NCBI GenBank assembly: GCA_001773695.1
Contig: MEXN01000003.1
Coordinates: forward strand, 25,547-89,546
Source of the DNA: Candidatus Amesbacteria bacterium RIFCSPLOWO2_01_FULL_48_25
Lineage (GTDB): Bacteria > Patescibacteriota > Microgenomatia > CAZETR01 > Amesbacteraceae
Length of the DNA: 64,000 bases
Direction of reading: 5' to 3'
Part shown: positions 9,416 to 57,800 of the stretch, piece by piece
Layout of the letters: the number at the start of each line of letters is the position of its first letter
Position numbering within the stretch: position 1 is the stretch's first letter
Made by a program: the position numbers and the translations under genes
The notes under the pieces: model-generated
What the model was told of the DNA's origin: nothing
The model's database searches: none
What the model saw: only the letters and a program-made list of their open reading frames with translations

Positions 9416-10662
9416 GACTTTTCTGATTTCAAATAATAAGTCAGGACAATTATGCTACACGTTGTGATTATGGTTGCCATAAGCTGGATGGTGTTCCAAA
9501 AAGAAAGCCAGTTAACTAATACGGGGATGCGGGGAAACCACCACTCGTGGTAAAGATTGGCCAGGTGGGCTAGTGAAAGTACAATAAAAATCGGCCATAA
9601 CCTGGGACGAAAGGCAGCAGCAAGGGCCAAGAAAGGGAGGGCTGGGGCTAAATAGCGTTCGTGCATCTTAGTGAGAAGGAGAAACGAAAGGATGGGCATC
9701 AGTGATGTCGCGAGAAAGAGATTTGAGAAAGAGATTTGAGAAAGGGTAAGTCTGATTAATACAAGAGAGGCGAATGTTCCAAAAAGAAAGAGGCCCAGTT
9801 GTCCGGCTGTGACTGACCCAATGACGGGAATGGTATCCGGAATCTTTTGCAAATGAGTCGTCCAGATCCAGGGATTAAAAGCGTGGTCGGTAACCCAATT
9901 GGACCCGGAGCCGGTTTGTAATCTGTCGACATAGATTTGGATCGGCCAAAGAAGAGAGATCGATGGGGCGAATGGTAAATACACCAAATAAACAACGGAA
10001 AACTGAAGGGTTATGCCGATGATCGTTTTCGGTAAACCGAAACGACGCCAAGAAAGAATTGCGAATATGGGAGCAAAAATAATAGATGATTGCTTGAAGA
10101 GTAATGCCGCCGTAAAAGCCAGGTTGGTGGCAAAGAAATGTTTTCTATGGGTGGACCAAAGGGCCAGGAGAAAGAAAAAAATAGGCAAGGACTCGATCTG
10201 GCCCCAAATGCTACTGAGGTACCAGACGGCCGGGTTAAAAATATAGGCCATGGTTGCAATAAAAGAGCGAGAAAACCGAAATATCAAAAAGCCGATGCCG
10301 ATGTCTGCGACAATACTGGTAATTTTGGTAAATGCCGGTAAAACGTCTTGGTCTTCCAGCGCCCAAATCAGACCGGAGGGAAAAACGGGCAGTGTACGGT
10401 TGATAAACGTGGCAGCTGAATACAACAGCCGATATAACCCCACCGAGGTAGTGAAGGAATACAGGGCCAGGGGGGGGTAAGTGGGTTGCATGACCCCGGG
10501 GTATTCATGATAGTAAGCGTTGTGAAACCCGGATCGCAGGATACCGTTTCCCCAAGCGACGTGGTTATTTAAATCGCCACTGTAAATAGTTACGCTAAGC
10601 GCTAGCCTGAGCACTACTCCTAAGACCAAAATTGCTATCAGTCTTTTAATTGGCCTGGTCAT
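9412..10662 (-). CDS. Polytopic membrane protein (putative GT-C-type transferase)
   Basis: Start trimmed to MTRPIKRLIAILVLG at 10662, which gives an ATGA overlap with the stop of 10659..12251. About 416 aa with many TM helices. Contains a C8 tract and a 13-nt direct repeat. Confidence 0.5.
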   Translation of the reverse strand: MTRPIKRLIAILVLGVVLRLALSVTIYSGDLNNHVAWGNGILRSGFHNAYYHEYPGVMQPTYPPLALYSFTTSVGLYRLLYSAATFINRTLPVFPSGLIWALEDQDVLPAFTKITSIVADIGIGFLIFRFSRSFIATMAYIFNPAVWYLSSIWGQIESLPIFFFLLALWSTHRKHFFATNLAFTAALLFKQSSIIFAPIFAILSWRRFGLPKTIIGITLQFSVVYLVYLPFAPSISLLWPIQIYVDRLQTGSGSNWVTDHAFNPWIWTTHLQKIPDTIPVIGSVTAGQLGLFLFGTFASLVLIRLTLSQISFSNLFLATSLMPILSFLLLTKMHERYLAPALPFLALAAAFRPRLWPIFIVLSLAHLANLYHEWWFPRIPVLVNWLSFWNTIQLMATIITTCSIIVLTYYLKSEKS

Positions 10663-39234: not shown

Positions 39235-39870
39235 GTGAAAATAGATATTTTGACACTGTTTCCGGAGATGTTTTCCGGGCCGTTTGACTATTCAATTCTT
39301 CGGCGAGCTCAGGACAAGCAGCTCGTGAAGATTGACATACATAATTTGCGGGATTGGGCGGCGGATAAGTATAAATCGGTCGATGATAGGCCGTACGGTG
39401 GAGGGGCGGGGATGATCCTGAAGGTGGATATTATCGACCGAGCGGTCGCAAGCCTCAAATCCCAGGCCTCAAATCCCAAAATAATATTGCTGGATGCAGG
39501 GGGAAAGAAATACACTCAGGAAAAGGCCGGAGAATTATCCCGGGGAGAACACTTAATCGTCATTTGTGGGCATTATGAGGGGGTGGACCATCGGGTACAT
39601 GAGCACGTTGCTGACGAGGTGATTTCTATAGGCGATTATGTGCTGTCCGGAGGAGAAGTCCCGGCTATGGTGATCGTGGACTCGGTAGTTAGATTATTAC
39701 CGGGAGCATTAGGGAATAAGAAATCCCTGGCCGAGGAATCACATAATAATGAGGAAATCGAATATCCTCAATATACCCGGCCGGAGGAGTATAAGGACTG
39801 GAAAGTGCCGGAAATTTTGCTGTCCGGGGATCACAAGAAAATTGAAGAGTGGAAGAAATTTAGGCAGTAA
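39235..39870 (+). CDS. trmD: tRNA (guanine37-N1)-methyltransferase TrmD
   Basis: 211 aa. MKIDILTLFPEMF...YGGGAGMILKVD...LICGHYEGVDHRV...GDYVLSGGE. This is the characteristic TrmD pattern. Confidence 0.9.
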   Translation: MKIDILTLFPEMFSGPFDYSILRRAQDKQLVKIDIHNLRDWAADKYKSVDDRPYGGGAGMILKVDIIDRAVASLKSQASNPKIILLDAGGKKYTQEKAGELSRGEHLIVICGHYEGVDHRVHEHVADEVISIGDYVLSGGEVPAMVIVDSVVRLLPGALGNKKSLAEESHNNEEIEYPQYTRPEEYKDWKVPEILLSGDHKKIEEWKKFRQ

Positions 39871-40732
39871 ATCCGTCTTTGATTAATCTGTCTTCGATAT
39901 CCTGCCAGGTACCGTAGCTCATTCCTAATTTTTCTTGTGTTCTTATTGGATTTAGCCCTCCATATTGGAGATAGCGGTTCGGATCTACGCTTGTAGTTTT
40001 AATTTGACTAGTGTCGTGACCGAGCTTTTGTAAGAAGCGGGTAATAATATTATAAGCTGTACCGGTGTTTGTGGCACTGATATGAAATATACCCGTAAGT
40101 CCTTCGTTGATTATCTTAATCAAAGACTCTGATACGTCTGGTATCAGACTTAATGATAACCATTGGTCTATAAAAAGTGGATAGAGATTCCCTACGATAT
40201 ATCTTTCGAGTGGGCCGTGTAAGTAATCGGGTTTTGGGGGAAATCTTTTTGGACCAACTGGGCTATTTATCCTGACTATCGCGTGTCTTTGGTTTTGTGG
40301 ATCCAAAAGTCTTTCAGCCAGATTTTTAGATTGACTGTAGACTAGAGTTAATCGGTCAGGATCCGGAAGAGGATGGTTTTCCGCGTATGGGCCACGGTCA
40401 TCTGCTGTTCCTGGAAAGACCATTTCGGTGGAAATTTGAATAAAGTGAGTGTGTGAGGGAAGATGTTTGAGTATATTTTCTACTCCACCTACATTTACCT
40501 TAAGGCATCTTTGGGCTTCTTCTTGGGCTTTTGAAACACTGGTATAGGCTGCAAAGTTGACAACATCTGTAAAAGTATGAGCAGCAAAATAATTTCGAAC
40601 TGAGGGTTCGCTAGCGATATCAAGCTCATTTGGAAGAGGAGCGCTAACATGGTATTTACTACCATATCTGCCTATAAAGTCAGACCCGACTAAACCTGTG
40701 GCGCCGGTGACTAGAATTTTTTCACCATTCAC
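39860..40732 (-). CDS. rmlD: dTDP-4-dehydrorhamnose reductase (RmlD-like NAD(P)-dependent reductase)
   Basis: 290 aa. KILVTGATGLVGSDF is a Rossmann motif, followed by YSQSK (YxxxK). Context with rmlA, rmlB and rmlC supports the call. Confidence 0.65.
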   Translation of the reverse strand: MNGEKILVTGATGLVGSDFIGRYGSKYHVSAPLPNELDIASEPSVRNYFAAHTFTDVVNFAAYTSVSKAQEEAQRCLKVNVGGVENILKHLPSHTHFIQISTEMVFPGTADDRGPYAENHPLPDPDRLTLVYSQSKNLAERLLDPQNQRHAIVRINSPVGPKRFPPKPDYLHGPLERYIVGNLYPLFIDQWLSLSLIPDVSESLIKIINEGLTGIFHISATNTGTAYNIITRFLQKLGHDTSQIKTTSVDPNRYLQYGGLNPIRTQEKLGMSYGTWQDIEDRLIKDGFTA

Positions 40733-41279
40733 TTTTAGGCTGCCAGATATCTGTTAAGAGAGTTTGCGTGGAAATCTTAAAGTTATCTGAAGTGTCTGGG
40801 GAGCTGAGAAGATTTATTATAATCGAATTTTCTTCCAGGGCTTTCCAGCCCTTGAGGACAACAGGAGGGATTTTTATAAACAACGGGTTTTTACTGCTAG
40901 CGATAAATTGATTAACATGGCCGAAGGACCGGCTTTCTTTTCTCAAATCTATGAGGACTATTTGCATTTTGCCAGCCAGACAAACGAATTGGCTGAAAGT
41001 CTTTTCGTGCCAATGCCAACCTTTTGTGATGTCTTTATCTGTGAGGTTGTAGTAGATGTGCTCTGGCTTAAGTATGTTTTTGTCTTCCCATTTCAAGCTC
41101 CAAATTTCTGTTAGGTCCCCTCTCCCATCCGCAAGAGTTTTTAGTTTTTTTACATAGACACCTTGAATGGTGGGGTCTGACCAAACGGATTGGATCTGAA
41201 GTCGGATATCTTTGAATTTTTCGGGGTCAAAACTAGTAGTTTTTCCCATAGATTTTTTCATAAGCTTTGCGATATTCAC
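40722..41279 (-). CDS. rmlC: dTDP-4-dehydrorhamnose 3,5-epimerase (RmlC, cupin). The start is uncertain and may be at 41261 or 41249.
   Basis: About 175-185 aa. DGRGDLTEIW...KGWHWHEKTFSQFVCLAGKMQIVLIDLRKESRSFG is cupin-fold RmlC-like. It lies between rmlB and rmlD. Confidence 0.6.
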   Translation of the reverse strand: MNIAKLMKKSMGKTTSFDPEKFKDIRLQIQSVWSDPTIQGVYVKKLKTLADGRGDLTEIWSLKWEDKNILKPEHIYYNLTDKDITKGWHWHEKTFSQFVCLAGKMQIVLIDLRKESRSFGHVNQFIASSKNPLFIKIPPVVLKGWKALEENSIIINLLSSPDTSDNFKISTQTLLTDIWQPKSEW

Positions 41280-42249
41280 CGGATTTTATCTTCTTCCACC
41301 ACCGAGTATTTTTCATATACCACTCGACGGTGAGGCGGATCGACTGGTCTAGGGAATATTTGGGCTTCCAGCCTAACTTACCTATTTTAGTCCAGTCCAC
41401 GGCGTATTTACGATCGTGGCCGGGGCGATCTGTGACAAATTCCATCCAATCCCCAGGTATATCCATAACTTTGATAATTTTACTCAGGAGTTGAATATTG
41501 TTGATTTCCCGGTGATCAGAGCCGATCAAATACCTCTCGCCCGGTTTACCTTTTTTCAGGATAACGTCGATGGCCCGGCAATGATCGATCACATAAATCC
41601 AATCCCGAATGTTTTTGCCGGTGCCATATACGGGAACTTTTTTGCCCTCGAGAATGTTGGTGATGGCCAAGGGGACAAACTTCTCCGGATATTGGTATGG
41701 ACCGATATTGTTGGTGCAGTTAGATATCGTGGCCGGCAAGTGATGAGTGTGAAGATAGGCCATAATAAACATTTCGGCAGAGGCTTTGGAAGCGGCGTAT
41801 TCATTACTGGGGTTAAGTAAAGTCTCGGCCGTAAATTTGTGCTTGTCATTAATGGCCAAGTCCCCAAAAACTTCGTCTGTCGATATTTGGTGAAATCGCT
41901 TAACTTGGTACTTAAGACAGGCTTCGAGGAGGTTGCGGGTACCAATGATGTTGCTGTTTATAAATTCGTTAGGCTCGTATAAGGAGCGGTCGACGTGAGT
42001 CTGGGCGGCAAAATTGACAACCACATCTACCCCTTGCTTGAATATCGGTTCAATCTCATCATAGCGGCTGATGTCTGAGTGATAAAATTTGTATTTGGGG
42101 CTTTTCTCAATATCGCGGAGATTATCGAGGTTGCCGCTGTACTTGAGGGCGTCTAAATTGATGACTATGTCTTTGGGGTAATTATCCAGCCAATAGTGAA
42201 CAATGTTGCTGCCGATAAAGCCCGCGCCGCCGGTAATTAAGACTTTCAT
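41233..42249 (-). CDS. rmlB: dTDP-glucose 4,6-dehydratase (RmlB)
   Basis: 338 aa. MKVLITGGAGFIGSN...VINLDALKYSGNLDNL...ISTDEVFG...YAASKA...DHREINN...RPGHDRKYA. Confidence 0.85.
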   Translation of the reverse strand: MKVLITGGAGFIGSNIVHYWLDNYPKDIVINLDALKYSGNLDNLRDIEKSPKYKFYHSDISRYDEIEPIFKQGVDVVVNFAAQTHVDRSLYEPNEFINSNIIGTRNLLEACLKYQVKRFHQISTDEVFGDLAINDKHKFTAETLLNPSNEYAASKASAEMFIMAYLHTHHLPATISNCTNNIGPYQYPEKFVPLAITNILEGKKVPVYGTGKNIRDWIYVIDHCRAIDVILKKGKPGERYLIGSDHREINNIQLLSKIIKVMDIPGDWMEFVTDRPGHDRKYAVDWTKIGKLGWKPKYSLDQSIRLTVEWYMKNTRWWKKIKSGEYRKAYEKIYGKNY

Positions 42250-42977
42250 ACTTTGAGGCCTTTTTCTTTAGCCCAATATACATTGGCCGCCAGAAGACTG
42301 TCAAAAGTGCCAACATCATGCCAATAGCCCTTGAGCTCCTCCCACTTCATACTGCCGTCCCGAATGTAATAATTTTGAACATCGGTGATTTCTAGTTGTC
42401 CCCTTTTGGAGAGTTTAAGTTTGCGGGCCACGCTAAAACAGCGATGATCAAAAAGATAAAGTCCGACCGATGCGTATTGAGAGGGAGGGTGGACAGGTTT
42501 TTCGACAATGCCAACAAGTTTTTTAGGGTGGTTTTTATCGAATACCGGAACGCCGAAACGCTCGGGATCGGGGACTTTTTTGAGAAACATCACTGAACCT
42601 GTGGTAAATGAGGTTACAGACTTGGAAATATCGGCATCAGTAACATTGTCTCCCAGAATAAAGGTTATGGGTTTACCCTCGGCGAAATCTTCGGCGACCT
42701 TGAGGCCGTCTGCTAGGCCCCCGGTCGGATTATCTTGATACCCATACTCGAGATGATTAAGACCTAATTCCTTGCCATTTTTCAAAATGCTTATGAACTG
42801 TCCCGAATGGGGGCCGCTGACGACGATCATCGCCTCTCTTATCCCGGCCCTGACCAGCGTCCGGATGGGGTAATAGATCATGGGCTCGTCGTAGATGGGA
42901 AGGAGGTGTTTATTGGTAGCGTATGTGAGAGGATAAAGCCGGGTGCCCAGCCCACCAGCGAGAATTACTCCTTTCAT
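42246..42977 (-). CDS. rmlA: Glucose-1-phosphate thymidylyltransferase (RmlA, short form)
   Basis: 243 aa. MKGVILAGGLGTRLYPLTYATNKHLLPIYDEPMIYYPIRTLVRAGIREAMIV. ATGA overlaps at both ends. Confidence 0.8.
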   Translation of the reverse strand: MKGVILAGGLGTRLYPLTYATNKHLLPIYDEPMIYYPIRTLVRAGIREAMIVVSGPHSGQFISILKNGKELGLNHLEYGYQDNPTGGLADGLKVAEDFAEGKPITFILGDNVTDADISKSVTSFTTGSVMFLKKVPDPERFGVPVFDKNHPKKLVGIVEKPVHPPSQYASVGLYLFDHRCFSVARKLKLSKRGQLEITDVQNYYIRDGSMKWEELKGYWHDVGTFDSLLAANVYWAKEKGLKV

Positions 42978-43546
42978 GATGAGGTGGATTGTAGCATAAA
43001 CCTGGCCTTTTTTTGATAGGTGGAGCCGGAGCGGGAGAGAAAGCTTTCGTAGAGAGTAATGTGGTCTACGGTAAATTTTGGGAGTGGGGAAAATTCGTAA
43101 TCGTCGATTTGACCTAGGTACCGTTTGGTGAGAGCGGGGTCTTGGCGGCGAAGTTTGCCAATTGTAATGTGAGGCAAAAACCGTATAGGTTGAGGAAATT
43201 TGATTTTAGATAGAGATAGTGATAGCGATTTTTGAAAATCTAACAACTCTGGTGAGGAAGCCGCTAGATATATTAGCGATGGTTCATGCCGCTGATATAA
43301 AGTTTCTAAAAAATGAGGAGTTAAGGTCAAAGGCGGATAGGATGAGACCACTCTATTGAGAGTTTTTTCGACCAGGGGAATATCTTTTTCTTCTACCCGA
43401 CCGAGAAAATTTAGTGTTAGGTGCATTTTTTGAGGTTTCTCCCAGTCCACTGGTAAGTTTAATCTGGAAAGACTTGTTTGAAGAACAACAACATTTTCAA
43501 GTGTGGTTTCAGGCAGGTCGAGGGCAATAAAAAGTCGGTGTTTCAA
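42974..43546 (-). CDS. thpR: RNA 2',3'-cyclic phosphodiesterase (ThpR/LigT, 2H phosphoesterase)
   Basis: 190 aa. Two H-x-T/S-x motifs: HLTLNFLG and HITIG. Starts RLFIALDLPE. Confidence 0.7.
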   Translation of the reverse strand: MKHRLFIALDLPETTLENVVVLQTSLSRLNLPVDWEKPQKMHLTLNFLGRVEEKDIPLVEKTLNRVVSSYPPLTLTPHFLETLYQRHEPSLIYLAASSPELLDFQKSLSLSLSKIKFPQPIRFLPHITIGKLRRQDPALTKRYLGQIDDYEFSPLPKFTVDHITLYESFLSRSGSTYQKKARFMLQSTSS

Positions 43547-43821
43547 GTCCTAAGAAGAAGTGAGCCAAAGAGTAACACGGCAAATAAAGCGACCAGGACA
43601 TATTCGAAAATAATCTTGAAATGTAGATCCCGATGCTGGTGGTGATGTACGACTCCCCAAACTACGTACGCCACTGCCATACTGAGTAATATGGTAAATT
43701 GCATGGCGTGGTCGTAATTGAACCAAAACAAACCCCACAACCCCACCAGCTGCAAGCTTAAAAGGGTAAAGTAGTGGAGCGGGTGGCGGGATAAATCTTT
43801 CTCAAAAAGAATTTGGGTCAT
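43543..43821 (-). CDS. Small membrane protein, hypothetical
   Basis: 92 aa, 3 predicted TM helices, HHHQH cluster. Confidence 0.35.
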   Translation of the reverse strand: MTQILFEKDLSRHPLHYFTLLSLQLVGLWGLFWFNYDHAMQFTILLSMAVAYVVWGVVHHHQHRDLHFKIIFEYVLVALFAVLLFGSLLLRT

Positions 43822-43832
43822 AATTTTTTATT

Positions 43833-44720
43833 TTACAGGATCTGACCCTGTAACACAGTAAATGCAGCGACTAAGAGAACAGAAATAAAGATGAGATGAG
43901 CGGGGCTACGGCTAGTCCAGCGAATTATCTGTCCTCGTCGAACTAAAACCACATCCACCAACAAAACCGTTGCGATAACGGCAAGTAAGGAAAGAGAGAT
44001 GGCCCGAGTGATATCAAACGGGTTGGCCACGGGTGTAGCCGAAAAGATCGATTGGGGAGGGACCTGGACTTGCATGACGGCTACGGCCGGGGCTGAGGCT
44101 GCTGGCTCTTCCTGCGCCTGGACGGTAAACGAGGCCTGGCGGCTTACGGCCGGGACCGCGGATAAGCGGGTGCCTAATAACTGGACTACCAAAGTTGTAT
44201 CACGACCACTAAGCTGGCCATCTACTACGGCGACACCAATATCTTGATATTTAGAGCTTAAGAGATTTTCCCGATGGGTGGGAGAGTCCACCCAGGCTTG
44301 GACTATTGAGCCGGGGTTTGAAAAATCCCGGGCCAAGTTTTCCCCAGCGTAGCGATAGGAGTAGCCAACTTCGGTAAAAAAGTACCAGGGAAGCGTGCCT
44401 ATAGGCGAGACGTGGGCCCAGTAGTCGCGGGCAAACATGTCTGCGGCTTTGAGAACGGCGGCCTGGGTAAGCTCGCTATCCAACTTGAGGGCGGGTAGAC
44501 CTTGGGACTCGCGATTGACATTTGTGAGGCGAACAATTTCAGCGGGCGGAATTTGCGAGGCATACCCTAAAATTGCGGGGTAAGACGAAGATACATAATT
44601 GATGGCAATTTGGACTAGAGTAAAGAAGCCTATGATAAGGCCGAAGGAACTGGGATGGAGGAGTTTGGCGCGTTGATTGTTGGACTCGTGCGGCAGGAAC
44701 AAGTGTCTAAACCAGGACAT
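43833..44720 (-). CDS. CAP/SCP (PR-1-like, YkwD-type) domain protein with N- and C-terminal membrane segments
   Basis: Start trimmed to MSWFRHLF at 44720. YWAHVSPIG...GENLARDFSNPGSIVQAWVDSPTHRENLLSSKYQDIGVAVV is a CAP-domain signature. Then an A/V/Q-rich linker and a C-terminal hydrophobic segment followed by RRGQ. Confidence 0.6.
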   Translation of the reverse strand: MSWFRHLFLPHESNNQRAKLLHPSSFGLIIGFFTLVQIAINYVSSSYPAILGYASQIPPAEIVRLTNVNRESQGLPALKLDSELTQAAVLKAADMFARDYWAHVSPIGTLPWYFFTEVGYSYRYAGENLARDFSNPGSIVQAWVDSPTHRENLLSSKYQDIGVAVVDGQLSGRDTTLVVQLLGTRLSAVPAVSRQASFTVQAQEEPAASAPAVAVMQVQVPPQSIFSATPVANPFDITRAISLSLLAVIATVLLVDVVLVRRGQIIRWTSRSPAHLIFISVLLVAAFTVLQGQIL

Positions 44721-44739
44721 TGACCCTATTATGAAGAAT

Positions 44740-45303
44740 TTAGAACGGCTTGGCAACAATGACGAGTCGGAGAGAGTCGAGAAAACCGGTGCAGGTAAAA
44801 ATGGTGAGCCGGGTATCTTGAGTCGCCTGGATAATGTCGATTTGACTGGGTTTGACAATAGATATGTCTGTAATTGAGAAAACCTCGGAGTGCCCATCTG
44901 CATAAATAATGGTTACCAATTGTCCCTCTTTCGCATCTTGGAGATTTTTAAAAATATTTGGCCAGTTGTGTCCATATATGACTGAGTTTCCCTGCTGGCC
45001 CGGAAGAACCGAGGTCGTCAAATATGAGACACCTTTAGATGTATAATCCCAGCGATTATTACGAATTTTGGCCGGATAAATGGGTAGAGTGAGGTTTAGT
45101 TCGTGGATGATAAAGGTTTGAGGGGAGGAAGCAGGAGCGCTGGTCCAAACTTCTCCCGGGGCGGCTGAAGCTGTGATGGGAGCATATCGCTGCCAAAGCA
45201 AAAAACCTGCCCAGGTAAAGCAGGTTAGGGATATCAAAAGTAATATCCAGAAGAAAACGTTACGCACTTTGTTTTGGGCGACGAAAGAGCATTGCCAAGA
45301 CAC
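44740..45303 (-). CDS. Sortase (transpeptidase), possibly class E-like
   Basis: 187 aa. N-terminal TM anchor; catalytic His in NSVIYGHNWPNIF; TLxTC motif RLTIFTCTG; C-terminal R. Confidence 0.7.
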   Translation of the reverse strand: MSWQCSFVAQNKVRNVFFWILLLISLTCFTWAGFLLWQRYAPITASAAPGEVWTSAPASSPQTFIIHELNLTLPIYPAKIRNNRWDYTSKGVSYLTTSVLPGQQGNSVIYGHNWPNIFKNLQDAKEGQLVTIIYADGHSEVFSITDISIVKPSQIDIIQATQDTRLTIFTCTGFLDSLRLVIVAKPF

Positions 45304-46114
45304 CCGCGGATAAGCCTAGCAAAATCAGGGTTAGAAGAGGGGCAAGGCTTCCGGTTGAGGCCAGTCCCAAGACTTGACCCCCAGTGGCCTGGCTTGGAGT
45401 AGCCCAGTCCCCGGGCATACAATTATTTACAGCGCGGAGGGCAAAGTAATAAGATTGGCTTGGATCCAGAGAGCCGATGGTGTAAGTGGTGACATTCCCC
45501 GTATTGGAAACGCCATAAATATAGTCGTCGGTCTTTAATCCGTATCCGATGGTGTAGTGGGACGCATTGGGGACGGTAGACCAAGAAAGAGTGGCGGTTG
45601 AACCGGAACGATTGACTGAAACCGAGGCCGGAGTGCCTGGTTTGGCCGAGTCACAAACAGGGGCTGGTCCGGCCTGGGCTTGGGAAAATCCGCTTTCCCC
45701 TCCCCCGCCACAATTGAAGTTGCTGTTTTGAGCCAGATAAGAAACCGGGTCCAGTCCCCAGGCTGAGCCGTCAGGAATAACGATCCATCCCAGCTTGGTG
45801 AGCTGGTCGATTTGATCTTGGGATAGACTGTCTTGCTTCCACCAGTTGGTTTGGATACCGGCGCCCGTGGCGGCACAAAAACATTGGACTAATTGGGAGT
45901 TGGAAACGGTGTAAACTACATCGCTGCCTACGTATTGACCCGCATCGCCCGGAATACCGTGAACTCCCGAGGAGTAGCTGACTTTGACTGAACCTGAAGG
46001 GCTTGTGCAGCTGGGGAACTGGGGAATATCGATAGCAAACACTGGCCGGCTGAAGGCGATCACCAAACCCGCTAAAACTAGGGCATGGATAATGAAACGA
46101 CCAAGATTTCTCAT
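45260..46114 (-). CDS. Secreted surface protein with FN3 domain and C-terminal LAXTG-type sorting signal (putative sortase substrate)
   Basis: 284 aa. Signal peptide. FN3-like TATLSWSTVPNASHYTIGYG...YYFALRAVNN. C-terminal GLASTG, a hydrophobic stretch LAPLLTLILLGLSAGVLAMLF, then RRPKQSA. This is a tripartite cell-wall sorting signal. Confidence 0.6.
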   Translation of the reverse strand: MRNLGRFIIHALVLAGLVIAFSRPVFAIDIPQFPSCTSPSGSVKVSYSSGVHGIPGDAGQYVGSDVVYTVSNSQLVQCFCAATGAGIQTNWWKQDSLSQDQIDQLTKLGWIVIPDGSAWGLDPVSYLAQNSNFNCGGGGESGFSQAQAGPAPVCDSAKPGTPASVSVNRSGSTATLSWSTVPNASHYTIGYGLKTDDYIYGVSNTGNVTTYTIGSLDPSQSYYFALRAVNNCMPGDWATPSQATGGQVLGLASTGSLAPLLTLILLGLSAGVLAMLFRRPKQSA

Positions 46115-46131: not shown

Positions 46132-47364
46132 TTAGTGGAGTATACTCTTCTTAAGCTGCAAAAGCAAGTATTTGAGTCTAAAGAGTATTCCTTCGTGGAC
46201 TTTTTTTACTATAATACGGTGTATTTGGTTTTCCGAGTAGTTGTGGTATTCAGTTGAGTAGTAGCCTGGCGCGGATATTAGGAGGGGATTGTTCTCTTCT
46301 AGATAGGCCAGCTGGAATCTGCCTTGAGAGTCTGTCTGAACGGTGCGAACAGTTGAGAATATTTGGGCTTTAGCCACCGGCTCGTCTAGAGCGTTGACAA
46401 TAATCCCGGAGATGGTTTTGGGAATGTAGTAGGAAGTCAACATACCTACAGCAGACCTGGATTTACCACTAGTGCTCCACAACTGGGTTGAACCACCAAC
46501 GCTGGTCCAATAATTGACGCCGATGACTGATTTTGTCAGACTAAGCCCTCTCAGAGCCGAATCCAGCCAGCCGGACTGCTGGATTTCGGTCATATTCCCA
46601 TGTAAGTCTTTGATGGGTACCCCAAATTCCCCTAAAATAATTTGGGCGCCTGTTTTGGAAGATAAGTCAGAAAGATCGTTAACTAGTTTTTGGGGAGAGG
46701 AAACGTAGTGGTCAACGGCGATAATCCCCCCCAGTCCGGCTGATGTGGACGAATCCATAATGAGCTTGGCTACGTCTAGGTTGTGAGAGTTGAGCACCAA
46801 AACTTGTTTGTTGATTTTAGTAAATGCGGTAGAGGCTTTTGAATATTGCTGGAGAAGAAAGCCTCTGTAACCAGATACATCTCCGGTGTGCCTGGGGTCG
46901 CCAATTCCGCCGTTCTCACACTCCGGACAGGGAGAGAAAACATCCCCGTCGGCAAACATTTTTGGATGGCTGGTTATAAATTTTTCCGTTTGAATTAATA
47001 GGTCTTCTCTGGATATGGAGGGATAGTTGAACCAACGTTCCCAGCCGGACCAATTGCCACGAAACCATACCCCGAGGTTGTATTTGCGAGCGGTGGATAC
47101 CCAGCGGGATAGGAAAGGGTAAAATTCTTCGTCATAAGGGGTGGCAATGGCCACGTAGGTGGCGCCGGTAGCGGCAATGTTTTTGATTTGCTGGTCTATG
47201 ACTGCATCGAATTTGTTATCGTTTAACTTCTCCCGGGCTAGATCACGAGAATACTTCATGGTATCCACCGATTGAATTTGCCAAAGAGTGGTCCGGGGAG
47301 CGGCATGTATTGTCTGGACAGAGATGGCTAACGCTAACGGCAGTAGAAATATTGCGGCCATCAT
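46132..47364 (-). CDS. Secreted glycoside-hydrolase-like protein (TIM-barrel-like, GEFG motif) with a C-terminal carboxypeptidase-regulatory-like beta-sandwich
   Basis: 410 aa. Signal peptide. ILGEFGVP and PECENGG are possible catalytic motifs. The C-terminal GIIVNALDEPVAKAQIFS...TDSQGRFQL is CarboxypepD_reg-like. Family assignment is uncertain. Confidence 0.4.
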   Translation of the reverse strand: MMAAIFLLPLALAISVQTIHAAPRTTLWQIQSVDTMKYSRDLAREKLNDNKFDAVIDQQIKNIAATGATYVAIATPYDEEFYPFLSRWVSTARKYNLGVWFRGNWSGWERWFNYPSISREDLLIQTEKFITSHPKMFADGDVFSPCPECENGGIGDPRHTGDVSGYRGFLLQQYSKASTAFTKINKQVLVLNSHNLDVAKLIMDSSTSAGLGGIIAVDHYVSSPQKLVNDLSDLSSKTGAQIILGEFGVPIKDLHGNMTEIQQSGWLDSALRGLSLTKSVIGVNYWTSVGGSTQLWSTSGKSRSAVGMLTSYYIPKTISGIIVNALDEPVAKAQIFSTVRTVQTDSQGRFQLAYLEENNPLLISAPGYYSTEYHNYSENQIHRIIVKKVHEGILFRLKYLLLQLKKSILH

Positions 47365-48947
47365 TTTTGATTTTTAAATACGGGTTGGTATTGGAGCTGG
47401 GAGAGATAATCGGATCTTATTTCGTAGACGTCGGCGAAGGGTAAATGGAATAATAGGTCATAGCTGGAAAAACCCTGGGTGCGACTGACGAACTTCCAAG
47501 TAAGATCATTGTCATCGTAGGTGCGCATAATAATCCACCTGGCCCACCGTTCCGGGGCAGTTGTCGCCGCTTCCCAATATGCCCCGGTGCCTTCATGGAT
47601 AAACCGTTTCATGGGTAGGCCCGATGAGAAGATAATGGCGTCGTGCGAGGCTGCCGAAATGAGGATAAATCCGGGCTGGTTTTTGGCATATGTATTTAAA
47701 AACCCGGCTACCTCAGAAACGTTTTTTTGGCTGGCGCCCACCCGGGCATCGTCTATGGTCACTGCGTCCTGGTTGGCCATGGCAAAGAACAGGACGAAGG
47801 CGGTCAGGCCCACGACGGTCCAGCGAAGGTGTCCGGCCTTGTGGACTAAAAAGCCCAAGAAGATAGCGATGGAGGGCATAAGCATGACTCCGTAGCGGAC
47901 ATTAAACCAGGTGTTTCCAGACAAACCTTGGACAAAAAGAACCGAAAAGCCTAAATATAGTGCCAGTATATTAAAGGCCAATGGGGCCAGGAGGGTGAGG
48001 CTGGCAAGCTTGGTGGATAAAGATAGTGCTTTATCCTTAAGTAAAATTATTGCCCCTATTAGACCAAGGATGGCAGGGAGAGTATAAGAGTTGTACATTA
48101 GGGCATAGAAATAGATTTTGGTCGATAGGCCTAGGTTACCTTTGGTAGCTAAAACGCCGGCAGCAGATAATTGAGCTTGTTGAGCGCGAGCGGAAAAGGG
48201 GCCGAAAGCAAAATACAAAGCATCTTTGAAAATCAATTGATTCCATAAAAACCAAAGAGCAATCCCCAATCCCCCCAGAGTGCAAAATATAATGGTCATG
48301 CCTTCGGCGGTAGAGTAATTTTTCTTTTTCCAAGTGTGGAGAGCGACGAGAATTGTCGAGAACAAAAGCAAGAACCAGCCGTCGTAGCGGATAAGAGTGG
48401 ACAACATAATCCAGAAGGCGGACTGAATGAGCTCCAAGAGGTTATCCGTCTGGTGCCAAACCAGAAGCTTGTAACAGCCGGCGGTCATGGTGGCTAAAAG
48501 CATCAGTTCGGTCATGGCCGTGGATTGAAGATATAAAACATTTAAGTTAACGGCAAAAACAGCGACTCCCACCAAGCGACCAAGCGAGCCGACTTTTAAT
48601 CTTTCTAGAAACTTGTAAATCAAAATGCCGGTGGCCACAAAGGCGGCCATAGACTGAATGGCCCCGGAGAGGCCCGAGTGCCACATGAAGTCGTTGCCTA
48701 TCGTGGGAATCATGAGGGCGTGGGTCAGAGGCAGCCAGACGGAACCGAGCTGAGCTAATCCCGGCTTGAGCCCTTCCACCACGCGCCGACCAATATCTAG
48801 GTGCGACCTAGCGTCGTTATAGGCGAGTCCCAGGCCGTTTTGGAGAAACCGCAAATAATAGACTACCGATAAAACTACTAAACTTGTAAAAATCAGCCTG
48901 AGGAAAAGACGGGAAGAGTTAGTGACGTTCATAAGCTGTGTGTCCAA
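47361..48947 (-). CDS. Polytopic membrane protein with C-terminal soluble domain (putative GT-C-type transferase)
   Basis: 528 aa. YNDARSHLDIGRRV...VWLPLTHAL, about 12 TM helices, then a ~130-aa soluble tail. Confidence 0.45.
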   Translation of the reverse strand: MDTQLMNVTNSSRLFLRLIFTSLVVLSVVYYLRFLQNGLGLAYNDARSHLDIGRRVVEGLKPGLAQLGSVWLPLTHALMIPTIGNDFMWHSGLSGAIQSMAAFVATGILIYKFLERLKVGSLGRLVGVAVFAVNLNVLYLQSTAMTELMLLATMTAGCYKLLVWHQTDNLLELIQSAFWIMLSTLIRYDGWFLLLFSTILVALHTWKKKNYSTAEGMTIIFCTLGGLGIALWFLWNQLIFKDALYFAFGPFSARAQQAQLSAAGVLATKGNLGLSTKIYFYALMYNSYTLPAILGLIGAIILLKDKALSLSTKLASLTLLAPLAFNILALYLGFSVLFVQGLSGNTWFNVRYGVMLMPSIAIFLGFLVHKAGHLRWTVVGLTAFVLFFAMANQDAVTIDDARVGASQKNVSEVAGFLNTYAKNQPGFILISAASHDAIIFSSGLPMKRFIHEGTGAYWEAATTAPERWARWIIMRTYDDNDLTWKFVSRTQGFSSYDLLFHLPFADVYEIRSDYLSQLQYQPVFKNQK

Positions 48948-53934: not shown

Positions 53935-54875
53935 ATGACGTTTTCGCGGGGAGCGTTCCAGGTGAGGTTGTGAATCTCACAGTTGATCATGAGACTACTG
54001 ACCCTCTTGGTGTAATTGGGGTCTTTTTTAGATTTGGCTGAAATACGAGAAAAAAGTCTGTTTCTCAGACCGTGGCTGATACCCATAGTAGAAATAGAGG
54101 TGACAGTTTCAAACTCCGGATACGTATAAGAGACTTGTTCCACATCGAGGATATGGATCTTTTTACCGCGGAGATAGATATTTCTGAAATTCAGATCACC
54201 ATGAACAAGCGTGGATTGATAATAACCTGTGAAAGCCGAAATGTTTTTGACAAATACCCAAATACCGCGAAGAATATCCAAGAATAAATTGGGGTGCTCG
54301 AAAATTGCGGCGATGGTGATTAGGGGCAGTATGCATAAATATTCCCCGATGAGTTTATGGCGGAACTGGGATACTTCAAGTCTGGTCATGTGGCGACCCA
54401 AAAATCTTAAATAGCCAACTACTTGATTGTGTATTTGGATCTGACGACGTGAATCATGGACTTTCGCCAGTGGTTTACCCAAAATAAATTTTGTTCCTAA
54501 AATTAATTTATGTTTTTCGTGGCGGGAGAAAGCCACGTTAGGTATGGAAAGTGCTTTGTACTTTGGTGGGAGAATATGGGCGACCCGGTCGTGGACATTG
54601 TTTAAGATTTGGATTGAGGTAAGCTGATGAAGCAGGTCATAATAATGGATGTCTTTTCTCTTGCCAGTCCAAATCTTCATAACAACCCGCAACCCTAACG
54701 GGTCTTGATATAGGCCCACTTTGAATGGAAAATGTTTTTCCGGTTGCAAATCACGAATTAACTTGAAGCGATCAATATGTTGGGGCATCTGCCTGGGAAC
54801 GTCCCGAAACCTTTTTTCGAATAGGCTGTTGTATAAATAACTAAAAATGATATTGACAAGCTTACTGATATTCAT
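53886..54875 (-). CDS. Protein-kinase-like fold phosphotransferase (APH/ChoK/Kdo-kinase-like)
   Basis: 329 aa. Catalytic-loop-like LVHGDLNFRNIYL (HGDxxxxN), then IHILDVEQVSY, which is DxE/DFG-like. Confidence 0.5.
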   Translation of the reverse strand: MNISKLVNIIFSYLYNSLFEKRFRDVPRQMPQHIDRFKLIRDLQPEKHFPFKVGLYQDPLGLRVVMKIWTGKRKDIHYYDLLHQLTSIQILNNVHDRVAHILPPKYKALSIPNVAFSRHEKHKLILGTKFILGKPLAKVHDSRRQIQIHNQVVGYLRFLGRHMTRLEVSQFRHKLIGEYLCILPLITIAAIFEHPNLFLDILRGIWVFVKNISAFTGYYQSTLVHGDLNFRNIYLRGKKIHILDVEQVSYTYPEFETVTSISTMGISHGLRNRLFSRISAKSKKDPNYTKRVSSLMINCEIHNLTWNAPRENVIWYTNLLKKGISLSPV

Positions 54876-57800
54876 ATGCTGGTTGATGGCTTAGGGGAAC
54901 ATCAATTTCGGGAACTAGGAGAAGTTTGACTGCCTCTAAAAAAGACCGTGATTGTGATTCCCAGGAGAATTGGCGAGACCAGGCTTGAGAATTTTTGGAA
55001 AAATATTTGAGGATCGAGGGGCGGTGAATCAGGGATTTAATCGTATTTGCCAAGGTATATGGATCAAGGGGGGGAACCAGGATACCGGTTTGGTTGTGGC
55101 GAACCGAATCGCGAAGACCAATTACATCCGAGGCGATGGCGGGAGTGCCACAAGCGTTGGCTTCGATGACGGTAATCCCCCACCCTTCGAACGAACTGGG
55201 CTGAAGCATGGCCCAAGATTGGGACAACAACTGGACTTTTTCTTTCTCCGTCACCCGGCCGAGAAAATAAACATTATTACTTAAGTTTAAATCTTCGGCG
55301 AGGTGCCGCAATTCTTTTATCCCCTCACCGACTCCGGCAATGTTCAGCCGGGCTTTGGGATGATCACGAACCACTTGAGAGAAAGCCCGAATAGCCACGT
55401 CTATATTTTTGTACGGGCGGATCCGGCCCACATAAACAAACGATGGATTTTTTGTTTTTGGCGCTTTGCGGATGTACTCCCTAAGAGTAATCCCGGGATT
55501 AACTATGGTGATATCTTCCGGACGGCTTAAACCGATGCGGACGATGTCGTTTTTGGAGGATTCGGAGACAGTAATAATCTTTTGGTTATGGTAGACAAGG
55601 GGCATGAGACGGGATTCCAAAGCCATGGCAAACTGAGCCACGGGAAAGGGCAGACGGCCCTGGAAAATTATTTTATCCTGATGGATGTGATGGATGAGGA
55701 GAATTTTGGGAATACGGGCGAATAGTGGAGTAAAAAATGGGATACCGTTTTCAGAGTCGATAACAATGTCAAATCGGTTCCGAAGACGCAACAAATAATA
55801 TATTACAGCCCAGAAATAGACTGTGTAAAAACCGCCATGGCGAATGATTTTCACTCCGTCGATTGTTTCCTTGCGGGGACAATTGCCGTCATTGCCGCAA
55901 AAAATGGTGACCGTATGGCCCTGGGCAGCCCAACGCTTGCCAAGCTCGTGAATATAGACCTCGGCGCCGCCGGCCCATTTATGGCGGATGTCCCGCCAGT
56001 TGAAAATTAGAATCCGGAGAGAATCCGATTTGGATGGGGAAAGTTCGCGAGGAAAAAAGCGGATCAATAAATCCCATAGATCCCTGATGTTGTTGGTCAC
56101 CGACCAGGAAAACTGGTAATAGAAATGGAGCATGAGAAAACTGCCCAGGTAAACTAAACTTAAAACCAGCATGACAGTGACTAAATCCGCAAGACTTGAA
56201 TGGAAAAAGTAGACTAAAACCGGTTGGAGGGAAGCTAAAATGAAGCCTAAAATGGGAAAGACATATTGGCGACGGGCTTGGTGATAATTGACGATACTAC
56301 CAGACAGGGTGAAGTTGACCATGGCCAGGCAGTACCAGGTTAACAAGGGGATGACGGAAATGATCTTCGGGCCGAAAAGAAGAGGAGCGAAAATTGACCC
56401 CAATGGCCCCAAAGCGACAAAGCCCATGATACTGGTAACGCTATTGCCCAGCAACAGGCGGTAAAACAGCGGCTTGGGATTGGCACCTTCCCCCTCGGCC
56501 CGACTGACTACGGGGATGATGAATGGATCAAATAAAGAGCCTAGAAAATAAACAATTTTACCGGCTAACGATATCAGAACATATTGACCGGCGATAGCGG
56601 GAGGTAAATAGATTTTGGCTAAGATTACGTCCAAACTCAAAAACGCCAGAGATGAAAGCTTGATAAGAATCGAGGTGCTAAAAAACCGAAAGGGGAAATG
56701 GGGTGCTGATTGCAGGGTCTTTGTGGCAACTATTTGGGGTTTGATAGCTCTGACTGCCAACCAACAGACTGCGAGAGCGGCGACTAATGAGAGAGGGTGA
56801 GAAGCGTATATATATTGGGGCCAACCCAAGCGGACAAAAAAGACGGCGAAAGCAAACTTGGATACAGATTCGACAGTGACCATAGCAGCAAGTACCGCAA
56901 ACCGGTGATGGCCAGCTAGGAATCCCCGATTCGTGGCCACTAAGGCAGTCGCTAACCATAACGGGGTGATAAGGAAAAACGGAGTCGTATTGCCGTTTGC
57001 TTGGAAAACCCGGGACATCCACGGAATGACCGCGATCCAGACGGCTGTCACTCCTAGCGAAATATACAAAACCCGACTTTTGATAAAGTTCCAAAAGTGG
57101 TTTACATAACGGTTCTTTTGACCCAAAAGAAATGCTACCCGGTGCGAGAGAGTTTTGGAGAGAGCGGTGGTAGGGATTTGCACCAAATAGGCAATACTAC
57201 CCATTAGGCCCACCAGACTGAATTCTTCTATGGAAATGGCCCGACCCAAATATATGTTGTAGAGAAAATTGAAAAAATTGCTGAGCATGGTAGAGGCTAC
57301 CAGAAGCGTGCCTCCCTTAAGTAAGGGTTGGGGTAGAACTCCCAGCCGTCCAAATTGATGAGAAACAAAGTTCCTCAGGCTTGAGAGCCAGGACTGACGG
57401 GCTTCTTTGGAAACTTCGAACAAATGGAGACCGTGGTGGGTTTTTTCCCAGTAATAGGGACGGAATACCAACTGCCAGAATGCCTTGAAAGCTGCTAGGC
57501 TTATAAACAGCCAGTAGAGGGGGACGGCAAATACGTATTTGACCAATTCCCACCGGCCGCGTTTGGCACAGCCAATCATGTAGTAATAGAGGTAGAGAAA
57601 ATTGCCGAAAATAGCGGAGAAGGCAGCCAGATAAAAGATGGCGGCGGGATAGAGGGACTCGATAGTGGGTCCGACATATTTATAAAGAGCAAAATAAGAA
57701 ATTGTCGCCAGCCACAAGAAGGGGTTAATAAGCATAAATGCGATCCGGCCGCCGACGATAAGCTGAAAAATTAGAGCGTGCCAACCGTGGGACTTTAAAA

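What the first reader, a model, noticed from the sequence alone, without database searches (positions are those of the whole stretch)
43833..46114. Sortase with a neighbouring LAXTG-type substrate (FN3 protein) and a CAP-domain surface protein
Gene 44740..45303 has the sortase catalytic His (VIYGHN) and TLxTC Cys motif (LTIFTCTG). The immediately upstream FN3-domain protein ends with GLASTG, a hydrophobic helix and RRPKQSA. That is a textbook tripartite sorting signal whose pentapeptide matches the LAXTG preference of class E sortases rather than LPXTG. This implies covalent anchoring of proteins to a peptidoglycan cross-bridge, which is a Gram-positive trait. It lies right next to the glycosylation cluster and a secreted hydrolase-like protein (46132..47364).
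Basis: partly seen in the sequence, partly recalled or inferred. Interest (0 to 1): 0.55.

Follow-up and report, generated by a model that had tools for sequence, protein, structure and literature searches.

The report
Microgenomates sortase with dedicated LAxTG substrate

Summary
The sortase gene (44740-45267, minus strand) has the His/Cys/Arg catalytic triad. The gene just upstream (45260-46114) ends in LASTG, a hydrophobic helix and RRPKQSA. The two genes overlap by 8 nt.

In all 77 related genome loci where the upstream DNA is present, an LAxTG protein sits directly upstream of the sortase on the same strand (median gap 8 nt). L, A, T and G are invariant or nearly so (72-73 of 73). Three unrelated protein families carry the motif next to this sortase type, so the motif follows the enzyme.

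The class E assignment fails. The class E model scores 24 bits against a cut-off of 160, lower than classes D, F, C and GN. There is no class E loop insertion. The nearest labelled relatives are classes A, C, D and F. This is an unclassified clade of Microgenomates sortases.

The FN3 domain is an insertion found mainly in Amesbacteria-like genomes. The conserved cargo is a 110-residue, four-cysteine domain with no Pfam, NCBIfam or solved-structure relative.

The CAP gene is not part of the system (adjacent in 1 of 80 loci). The conserved module is: membrane protein, GH5-like protein, substrate, sortase.

No biochemistry exists; the cell-wall acceptor is inferred.

The parts
47361..48932 (-). 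Module gene 1: a 523-aa polytopic membrane protein of unknown family with a C-terminal extracytoplasmic region.
   Evidence: A homologue lies colinear upstream in 46 of the 58 loci that have at least 4.5 kb of upstream DNA. Conservation is extreme: 65% mean column identity. No Pfam, NCBIfam or PDB hit was found. hhalign against the window's PMT_2 paralogues is not significant.
46132..47361 (-). Module gene 2: a 409-aa secreted protein with a signal peptide, a GH5-like region and a C-terminal CarboxypepD_reg-type beta-sandwich.
   Evidence: A homologue is found in 53 of 80 loci. It carries invariant C-x-E-C-E-N-G and L-G-E-F-G motifs. Pfam CarboxypepD_reg gives E = 4e-7. UniRef names it 'Glycoside hydrolase family 5 domain-containing protein'. 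There is no PDB sequence relative for the N-terminal region.
45260..46114 (-). Substrate gene (284 aa): signal peptide, cysteine-rich N-domain, FN3 and an LASTG sorting signal.
   Evidence: It is 100% identical to a hypothetical protein of Candidatus Amesbacteria.
46034..46114 (-). Sec signal peptide (residues 1-27), with predicted cleavage after VFA.
   Evidence: Hydrophobic N-terminal helix, residues 2-21 in the model. The cleavage site is read from the sequence, not computed.
45710..46033 (-). Conserved cargo domain (residues 28-135): alpha/beta, four invariant Cys, many invariant aromatic and polar residues.
45386..45664 (-). FN3 domain (about residues 151-243), a lineage-specific insertion flanked by a Cys pair (PVC ... 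NNC).
   Evidence: Pfam fn3 matches residues 162-243. The model's beta strands have pLDDT above 90. The domain is absent from most orthologues.
45350..45364 (-). Sorting pentapeptide LASTG (residues 251-255), with the predicted scissile bond between Thr254 and Gly255.
   Evidence: Across 73 loci: L in 72, A in 73, T in 73, G in 73, followed by N or D in 65. The segment is disordered in the model, with pLDDT below 50 at residues 243-254.
45284..45349 (-). Hydrophobic membrane-retention helix of the sorting signal (residues 256-277).
   Evidence: (helix 257-276).
45263..45283 (-). Positively charged cytoplasmic tail, RRPKQSA.
   Evidence: Orthologues have a mean of 3 Lys/Arg in their last 10 residues.
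45260..45267 (-). 8-nt overlap (GTGCGTAA) between the substrate stop codon and the sortase GTG start; it suggests translational coupling.
   Evidence: Sequence read; gene calls. The median substrate-to-sortase gap in 75 loci is 8 nt.
44740..45267 (-). Sortase (175 aa): an N-terminal membrane anchor followed by an extracytoplasmic catalytic domain. Unclassified clade.
   Evidence: Pfam Sortase 74.1 bits. It is below the cut-off for every NCBIfam class. Family alignment; PDB profile ranking.
45190..45258 (-). Sortase N-terminal transmembrane anchor (about residues 4-26).
   Evidence: Hydropathy analysis; the segment is conserved and hydrophobic in the alignment.
44968..44970 (-). Catalytic His100 codon (YGHNW).
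   Evidence: Invariant in 24 of 24 homologues; aligned to the catalytic His of solved sortases.
44791..44793 (-). Catalytic Cys159 codon (TxxTC motif: LTIFTC).
   Evidence: Invariant; aligned to the catalytic Cys of solved sortases.
44767..44769 (-). Catalytic Arg167 codon (FLDSLR).
   Evidence: Invariant; aligned to the Arg of class A and C sortases.
43833..44720 (-). Neighbouring CAP/SCP (YkwD-like) membrane protein of 295 aa. It is not part of the conserved sortase module.
   Evidence: Pfam CAP 62.8 bits; NCBIfam YkwD 107 bits, below its cut-off. It has one N-terminal and two C-terminal TM helices and no sorting motif. It lies within 10 kb in 10 of 80 loci and is adjacent in 1 of 80.
43543..43821 (-). 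92-aa small membrane protein that travels with the CAP gene.
   Evidence: It co-occurs with CAP in 7 loci, next to CAP on the same strand in each.

Best explanation
This is a dedicated sortase-substrate pair from a Microgenomates (CPR) bacterium.

**Proposed mechanism**
1. The 284-aa protein is exported by Sec.
2. It is held in the membrane by its C-terminal helix and RRPK tail.
3. The membrane-anchored sortase, co-translated from the overlapping downstream gene, cleaves it between Thr254 and Gly255 of LASTG using Cys159, His100 and Arg167.
4. The resulting thioester is resolved by an amine of the cell-wall precursor. The conserved cysteine-rich N-domain ends up covalently displayed on the peptidoglycan. 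In Amesbacteria an FN3 domain acts as a spacer between the N-domain and the wall.

**Classification.** The enzyme belongs to an unclassified sortase clade that is widespread in Microgenomates. Its preference for Ala at P3 arose separately from that of actinobacterial class E.

**Genomic setting.** The pair forms the 3' end of a conserved four-gene envelope module: unknown polytopic membrane protein, GH5-like secreted protein, substrate, sortase.

**Shown:** domain identities, the catalytic residues, conservation of the signal, and the synteny.

**Inferred:** cleavage at T|G, peptidoglycan as the acceptor, and any glycan-binding or adhesive role of the cargo domain.
For: **Enzyme**
- The sortase domain and an invariant H/C/R triad are present.
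- It has an N-terminal anchor.

**Pairing with the substrate**
- In 75 of 80 species-representative loci, a homologue of the N-domain protein lies immediately upstream on the same strand, with a median gap of 8 nt.
- Three of the remaining loci are cut at the contig edge.
- The other two (L027, L053) carry an unrelated protein that still ends in LASTG or LAGTG plus a TM helix and basic tail.
- A third unrelated LAATG protein lies downstream of the sortase in L066.

**Signal conservation**
- Among 73 loci, L is present in 72 and A, T and G in all 73, while the flanking linker and TM sequence vary.
- The same holds in more than 100 database homologues.
- The background frequency of LA.TG in the tails of other ORFs is about 1 in 2756.

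**Other**
- The motif segment is disordered and followed by a confident TM helix in the model.
- The module membrane protein-GH-substrate-sortase is colinear in 46 of 58 testable loci.
- The sortase family is reported as near ubiquitous in Microgenomates (PMC6744442).
- An rmlABCD operon and many glycosyltransferases flank the locus, which fits a cell-envelope locus.
Against: - There is no biochemical or proteomic evidence of any kind.
- The sortase falls below the cut-off of every curated class model, so its specificity is inferred only from neighbours.
- No NCBIfam model, and therefore no cell-wall-anchor model, hits the tail at E <= 0.01.
- The acceptor nucleophile is unknown, and no peptidoglycan-synthesis genes were identified among the window ORFs examined.
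- The number of LAxTG proteins per genome could not be counted. "Dedicated" rests on about 1.2 Mb of flanking DNA containing only one additional candidate.
- The cargo domain's function is unknown, with no structural or sequence relatives.
Confidence: 0.7

Rival explanations
1. One reading: the enzyme is a class E sortase of the actinobacterial housekeeping type, which explains the LAxTG motif.
For: The substrate motif is LAxTG, as in class E (PMC5148588). An invariant Tyr (Y82, in KGVSYL) lies in the beta3/beta4 region, one residue before the site aligned to SaSrtA A104. That site is analogous to the class E Tyr.
Against: - The class E model scores 24.1 bits against a cut-off of 160, the lowest of seven sortase models.
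- The class E structure 5UTT scores 23 bits, against 43-51 bits for class A, C and D structures.
- There is no beta6/beta7 insertion.
- The residue at the A104-equivalent position is an invariant Leu, not Tyr.
- The nearest labelled plasmid sortases are class D and F.
- The host is a Microgenomates bacterium, not an actinobacterium.
Confidence: 0.04
2. The sortase is a pilus-type polymerase. It links copies of the adjacent protein head-to-tail into a covalent fibre instead of, or before, wall anchoring.
For: Class C pilus sortases are among the best PDB matches, at 47-51 bits. A sortase next to its own substrate is typical of pilus loci. CPR cells bear filaments.
Against: - The class C model scores 38.8 bits against a cut-off of 160.
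- No DP(F/W/Y) lid motif is present before the catalytic domain (sequence).
- The substrate family has no invariant Lys that could act as the pilin nucleophile.
- There is one substrate gene, not a set of two or three pilins, and no second sortase in the 64-kb window.
- The cargo domain shows no significant match to any solved structure, pilin folds included.
Confidence: 0.08
3. The sortase cleaves the LAxTG signal but transfers the protein to a non-peptidoglycan acceptor, such as a glycan or glycolipid made by the neighbouring genes, or to water so that the protein is released.
For: The pair is embedded in a conserved module with a GH5-like protein and an unknown, highly conserved membrane protein, beside rml and glycosyltransferase genes. 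The structure of the CPR envelope is unresolved (PMC5220378).
Against: No sortase is known to use such acceptors (established knowledge of the family). Nothing in the sequence distinguishes this reading from wall anchoring.
Confidence: 0.13
4. The C-terminal segment is only a membrane anchor, and its proximity to the sortase is coincidental.
For: The tail on its own would function as a stop-transfer anchor.
Against: Strict conservation of L-A-x-T-G while the helix sequence drifts. Adjacency in 77 of 77 testable loci. The same motif on unrelated proteins next to the same sortase type.
Confidence: 0.03

Closest known systems
Class E sortases and their LAxTG substrates (S. coelicolor SrtE1/SrtE2 with chaplins; A. 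oris SrtA)
   Same: Same pentapeptide, with Ala at P3. Same overall logic: a membrane-anchored Cys transpeptidase acting on a tripartite C-terminal signal.
   Different: - It is not a sequence member of class E: 24 bits against a cut-off of 160.
- It lacks the class E beta6/beta7 insertion.
- It has Leu at the A104-equivalent site.
- Its lineage is different (Microgenomates).
- It appears to serve one adjacent substrate rather than many housekeeping substrates.
Dedicated sortase-substrate operons, e.g. S. aureus SrtB-IsdC (NPQTN), B. anthracis class D SrtC-BasH/BasI, and the proteobacterial class GN sortase with its single neighbouring target
   Same: One sortase is encoded next to the one protein, or very few proteins, that it processes, with a non-canonical motif specific to that pair.
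   Different: The motif is different (LAxTG). The enzyme reaches none of those class models: D 44, GN 41.5 and C 38.8 bits, all far below their cut-offs. The cargo domain is uncharacterised.
CPR sortase protein family fam000526 of Meheust et al. 2019 (PMC6744442)
   Same: Probably the same enzyme family. It is reported as near ubiquitous in Microgenomates and enriched in CPR.
   Different: That work reports presence and absence only. In the searchable library I found no description of the LAxTG signal, the adjacent conserved substrate or the four-gene module.

Membership tests
Sortase superfamily (Pfam PF04203 / MEROPS C60) | The sortase domain HMM scores above the gathering threshold. | tested here: met
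   74.1 bits against a cut-off of 26.6. TIGR01076 sortase_fam scores 40.2 against 39.35.
Sortase superfamily (Pfam PF04203 / MEROPS C60) | Catalytic His, Cys (TLxTC) and Arg are present. | tested here: met
   H100, C159 and R167 are invariant in 24 homologues and aligned to the catalytic residues of solved sortases.
Sortase superfamily (Pfam PF04203 / MEROPS C60) | A substrate with a tripartite C-terminal sorting signal: motif, hydrophobic helix, basic tail. | tested here: met
   LASTG plus a 22-residue helix plus RRPKQSA; conserved in 73 of 75 locus orthologues.
Sortase superfamily (Pfam PF04203 / MEROPS C60) | Cleavage after Thr and transpeptidation to a cell-wall amine. | not testable with these tools
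   This needs enzyme assays or muropeptide mass spectrometry.
Class E sortase | The class-specific HMM (NCBIfam NF033747) scores above its cut-off. | tested here: not met
   24.1 bits against a cut-off of 160, the lowest of all the sortase models that hit. The class E structure 5UTT scores only 23 bits with the family profile.
Class E sortase | LAxTG sorting signals. | tested here: met
Class E sortase | A conserved Tyr in the beta3/beta4 loop at the site analogous to SaSrtA A104 (PMC5148588). | tested here: inconclusive
   The aligned position is an invariant Leu (L83). An invariant Tyr (Y82) lies one residue earlier.
Class E sortase | An insertion of about 21 residues in the beta6/beta7 loop relative to class A (PMC5148588). 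| tested here: not met
   The loop is 2 residues shorter than in S. aureus SrtA in the pairwise alignment.
Class C (pilus-specific) sortase | The class HMM scores above its cut-off; an N-terminal lid with a DP(F/W/Y) motif; a pilin substrate with a conserved Lys nucleophile. | tested here: not met
   38.8 bits against a cut-off of 160. There is no DP[FWY] between the anchor and the catalytic domain. There is no invariant Lys in the substrate alignment.
Class D / F / GN sortases | The class HMM scores above its cut-off. | tested here: not met
   D scores 44 against 165, SrtD 42.9 against 140, GN 41.5 against 158, F 40.7 against 166. These are nevertheless the nearest labelled relatives.
Fibronectin type III domain | The Pfam fn3 HMM scores above its cut-off, and the fold is a beta-sandwich. 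| tested here: met
   30.8 bits against a cut-off of 25, residues 162-243. The model shows strands with pLDDT above 90.
CAP/SCP (YkwD-like) domain (neighbouring gene) | The Pfam CAP HMM scores above its cut-off. | tested here: met
   62.8 bits against a cut-off of 21.1. NCBIfam YkwD scores 107 against 171, so this is not the spore YkwD subfamily.

The most novel reading that the evidence does not exclude
The sortase pair may be the tail end of a Microgenomates-wide four-gene envelope module: an extremely conserved unknown membrane protein, a GH5-like enzyme, a wall-anchored domain and a sortase. In this reading the anchored 110-residue, four-cysteine, aromatic-rich domain is a new fold that binds or organises a cell-surface glycan, or a host-cell surface. 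The sortase clade would have evolved LAxTG specificity independently of class E, using different active-site determinants.
Probability: 0.35. Interest if true: 0.65.

Novelty: new variant of a known kind. Interest (0 to 1): 0.5.

Why it matters
CPR/Patescibacteria make up a large share of bacterial diversity. Their envelopes and surface proteins are almost uncharacterised; the literature says so explicitly (PMC5220378).

This locus offers a concrete, testable handle. It has one enzyme, one strictly conserved recognition motif, and one conserved cargo domain that is probably the covalently wall-linked surface protein of Microgenomates.

It also gives a second, independent natural example of a sortase lineage that prefers Ala at P3. 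That is useful for understanding and engineering sortase specificity.

The cargo domain and the two upstream module proteins lack any characterised relative, so they are good targets for structural and functional work.

Tried and rejected
- **Rfam scan of the whole window:** no RNA families.
- **Promoter and terminator scan of 42.9-51 kb:** counts are at chance level. The best promoter-like site lies just upstream of the CAP gene but is not significant.
- **Upstream membrane protein as a GT-C/PMT-type glycosyltransferase:** phmmer against the window's paralogues found nothing. hhalign against three PMT_2 paralogues gave a probability of 0.3%. Pfam, NCBIfam and PDB gave nothing. Its family remains unknown.
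- **GH-like protein against PDB by sequence or profile:** only the C-terminal beta-sandwich matched. "GH5-like" rests on a UniRef name and on the conserved GEFG and ECENG motifs.
- **Apparent substrate-sortase fusion ORFs (L006, P0316) as Rosetta-stone evidence:** rejected. The L006 junction lies on an A10 homopolymer, so it is probably an assembly frameshift.
- **Link to the newly described CPR Pam pili (bioRxiv 10.64898/2026.03.03.709456):** considered because that system includes an FnIII protein with a C-terminal helix. The paper mentions sortase only as background. I could not compare the cargo domain with the Pam proteins directly, and it matches no solved structure. No link is supported.
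- **Genome-wide count of LAxTG proteins:** not possible with only the window and 20-kb loci.
Full report
**Source and gene models**

Database proteins 99-100% identical to the genes in question are named Candidatus Amesbacteria (Microgenomates, CPR/Patescibacteria) and come from Rifle groundwater metagenomes. All relevant genes are on the minus strand and tightly packed:

| Gene | Window coordinates | Size |
|---|---|---|
| Polytopic membrane protein | 47361-48932 | 523 aa |
| Secreted GH5-like protein | 46132-47361 | 409 aa |
| FN3 protein (substrate) | 45260-46114 | 284 aa |
| Sortase | 44740-45267 | 175 aa |
| CAP-domain protein | 43833-44720 | 295 aa |
| Small membrane protein | 43543-43821 | 92 aa |

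These are followed by LigT and rmlABCD. Independent gene calls agree with these starts. The substrate stop and the sortase GTG start overlap by 8 nt (GTGCGTAA, 45260-45267).

**Checking the observation**

The sortase domain is unambiguous: Pfam scores 74.1 bits. In an alignment of 24 homologues, His100 (YGHNW), Cys159 (TLYTCTGFLD) and Arg167 are invariant. They align with the catalytic residues of solved class A and class C sortases. An N-terminal hydrophobic segment anchors the enzyme in the membrane.

The upstream protein has the following parts:
- a signal peptide;
- a confidently modelled N-domain (residues 28-135, pLDDT about 95);
- a short glycine-rich linker;
- an FN3 domain (Pfam 30.8 bits);
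- a disordered segment containing LASTG (residues 251-255);
- a transmembrane helix (257-276);
- the tail RRPKQSA.

It is the only such tail in the 64-kb window. The window holds one copy each of the sortase and of the N-domain.

**Is the motif meaningful?**

About 120 database homologues of the substrate nearly all end in ...GQVLG-LA[S/T/A/N]TG-[N/D], a helix and a basic tail. Rarer variants are FAxTG and FAPTG.

A scan of one genome per GTDB species returned 184 relatives of the sortase, and the best 80 loci were fetched. These loci gave the following results:
- In 75 of 80, a homologue of the N-domain protein lies directly upstream of the sortase on the same strand. The median gap is 8 nt, and the sortase begins no more than 60 nt past the substrate stop (or overlaps it) in 69 of 75.
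- Three of the remaining loci begin within a few hundred bases of the sortase, so the upstream gene cannot be seen.
- The other two (L027, L053) carry a different, unrelated secreted protein in the same position. It still ends in LASTG or LAGTG plus a helix and basic tail.
- L066 has a further unrelated LAATG protein just downstream of the sortase.

Across the 73 orthologues with intact tails, L is present in 72 and A, T and G in all 73. The next residue is N or D in 65 of 73. The helix sequence is free to vary.

In 2756 other ORFs from these loci, LA.TG occurs in the last 50 residues only 4 times, and 3 of those are the substrates just mentioned. So the motif tracks the sortase clade across three unrelated cargo families. 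That is the strongest computational evidence available that it is the recognition site.

**Sortase class**

1. NCBIfam class models. None reaches its cut-off of 140-166 bits:

| Model | Bits |
|---|---|
| Class D | 44.0 |
| SrtD | 42.9 |
| GN | 41.5 |
| Class F | 40.7 |
| Class C | 38.8 |
| Class E | 24.1 |

2. A profile of the family searched against all PDB chains. Class A (2KW8, 51 bits), class C (5K9A, 2XWG, 24RR; 47-51 bits) and class D (4D70, 43 bits) rank first. The class E enzyme A. oris SrtA (5UTT; class confirmed in PMC11131087) scores 23 bits.
3. The class E hallmark of a 21-residue beta6/beta7 insertion (PMC5148588) is absent. The loop is 2 residues shorter than in S. aureus SrtA.
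4. The proposed class E specificity determinant is a Tyr at the site analogous to SaSrtA A104. Here that site is an invariant Leu, with an invariant Tyr one position earlier (KGVSYL). This test is inconclusive because the loop alignment may shift by one residue.
5. The nearest sortases with curated class names among 72,556 plasmids are class D and F, at 25-36% identity.

The enzyme is therefore a sortase, but an unclassified one. Its LAxTG preference is best read as independent of class E.

A pilus-polymerase (class C-like) role is unlikely. There is no lid motif, no invariant Lys in the substrate, and no set of multiple pilin genes.

**What is anchored**

In the GTDB-representative loci most orthologues are 175-225 aa. 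They consist of a signal peptide, the N-domain, a Gly/Ser-rich linker and the signal. Only a few, mainly Amesbacteria-like, carry the FN3 insertion, which is bracketed by a Cys pair. The conserved cargo is therefore the N-domain.

The N-domain has these properties:
- It has four invariant cysteines, plus invariant His, Asp, Gln, Asn, Tyr and several Trp residues.
- Modelled alone, it gives pLDDT 92.4 and pTM 0.85, as a beta-sheet with two short helices.
- Pfam and NCBIfam have no model for it.
- An exhaustive HMMER search of 1.84 billion representative proteins finds only 339 clusters.
- Those clusters are mostly 180-220 aa proteins with the same signal. A few have two or three tandem copies. 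One of these ends in an LPRTG signal instead, again suggesting that the motif follows the resident sortase rather than the domain.

The richness in invariant aromatic and polar residues is compatible with glycan binding, but that is inference only.

**Genomic context**

Homologues of the 523-aa membrane protein and of the GH5-like protein lie colinear upstream of the substrate and sortase in 46 of the 58 loci with enough upstream DNA.

- The membrane protein is remarkably conserved: 65% mean column identity, against 41% for the sortase and 39% for the substrate. It matches no known family.
- The GH-like protein has invariant ECENG and LGEFG motifs and a C-terminal CarboxypepD_reg-type domain. 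UniRef labels it a GH5 domain protein.
- The CAP gene and its 92-aa partner form a separate unit. They occur within 10 kb of the sortase in 10 of 80 loci and are adjacent only in another Amesbacteria genome. The CAP protein has its own membrane helices at both ends and no sorting motif.

The surrounding 64 kb is dominated by glycosyltransferases, PMT_2-type membrane proteins, a polysaccharide flippase-type protein and the dTDP-rhamnose genes.

**Mechanism and rivals**

The best-supported account is canonical sortase chemistry applied to a dedicated neighbour: Sec export, retention by the helix and basic tail, cleavage at LAST|G by Cys159, and transfer to a wall-precursor amine. This would display the N-domain on the wall.

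The steps from cleavage onward are inferred from the family's established mechanism. They are not shown here.

The alternatives cannot be excluded computationally, but they have less or no support:
- a non-peptidoglycan acceptor or release of the protein;
- pilus polymerisation;
- a passive membrane anchor.

**Prior knowledge**

Sortases are known to be near ubiquitous in Microgenomates (PMC6744442) and have been noted in individual genomes (PMC7143001). The gene is annotated "sortase" in GenBank, while the substrate is annotated "hypothetical" or "FN3 domain-containing".

Full-text searches combined sortase with CPR, Patescibacteria and Microgenomates, and LAXTG with Patescibacteria. They found no description of the LAxTG signal, the conserved substrate or the module. 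The library does not cover subscription journals, so prior description cannot be ruled out.

**Verdict**

It is wrong on class E and on the CAP protein, and the FN3 domain is incidental.
- This is a new variant of a known kind of system.
- It is of moderate interest, mainly as an entry point into the biology of the CPR cell surface.

Noticed in passing
window 47361-48932 (-): This 523-aa polytopic membrane protein matches no Pfam, NCBIfam or PDB family. Yet it is far more conserved across Microgenomates (65% mean column identity, more than 100 invariant columns) than the sortase or its substrate. It looks like an important uncharacterised envelope protein.
   Followed up: partly
window 46132-47361 (-): A secreted protein with invariant C-x-E-C-E-N-G and L-G-E-F-G motifs and a C-terminal CarboxypepD_reg-like domain. 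UniRef calls it a GH5 domain protein, but no solved structure matches its N-terminal region by sequence.
   Followed up: partly
window 39860-42977 (-): A complete dTDP-L-rhamnose operon (rmlA, B, C, D by Pfam domains) lies directly downstream of the sortase/CAP/LigT genes. This suggests a rhamnose-containing wall polysaccharide.
   Followed up: no
window 54862-59571 (-): A single 1569-aa ORF fuses two GT2 domains, a Polysacc_synt (flippase-like) membrane region and a GT4/GT1 domain. This is an unusually large multi-enzyme glycosylation protein.
   Followed up: no
window 1-64000: GC skew is persistently positive (0.05-0.23 in every 2-kb bin), and 47 of the 55 long ORFs are on the minus strand. 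GC content rises to 0.52 over 44-46 kb, against about 0.44 nearby. A published Microgenomates genome reports a similar strand disparity (PMC7143001).
   Followed up: no
window 3021-4613, 6063-7592, 10659-12251 and other ~500-aa ORFs: At least three PMT_2-type (GT-C) membrane glycosyltransferase paralogues are present, together with many further unassigned polytopic proteins of about 500 aa.
   Followed up: partly
L006 9329-10570; protein P0316: Substrate and sortase appear fused into one ORF in two records. The L006 junction sits on an A10 homopolymer, so it is probably an assembly frameshift. Even so, a fusion would be topologically consistent.
   Followed up: partly
loci L004, L006, L009-L014 and many others: Many species-representative MAG records that carry this Microgenomates-type module are titled 'uncultured Gammaproteobacteria bacterium' (TPA assemblies). 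Others are labelled Sulfotelmatobacter or Weeksellaceae. These look like taxonomic mislabels or mis-binned contigs.
   Followed up: no
proteins P0241, P0242, P0365: The cargo N-domain also occurs as two or three tandem copies in longer proteins. One of them (P0241, 640 aa) ends in a classical LPRTG signal rather than LAxTG.
   Followed up: partly
substrate homologues, C-terminal linker: Many homologues, and the unrelated L066 LAATG protein, carry a half-repeat 'GQVLGAST(G)' just before the 'GQVLGLAxTG' signal. This suggests a duplicated or extended recognition cassette.
   Followed up: no
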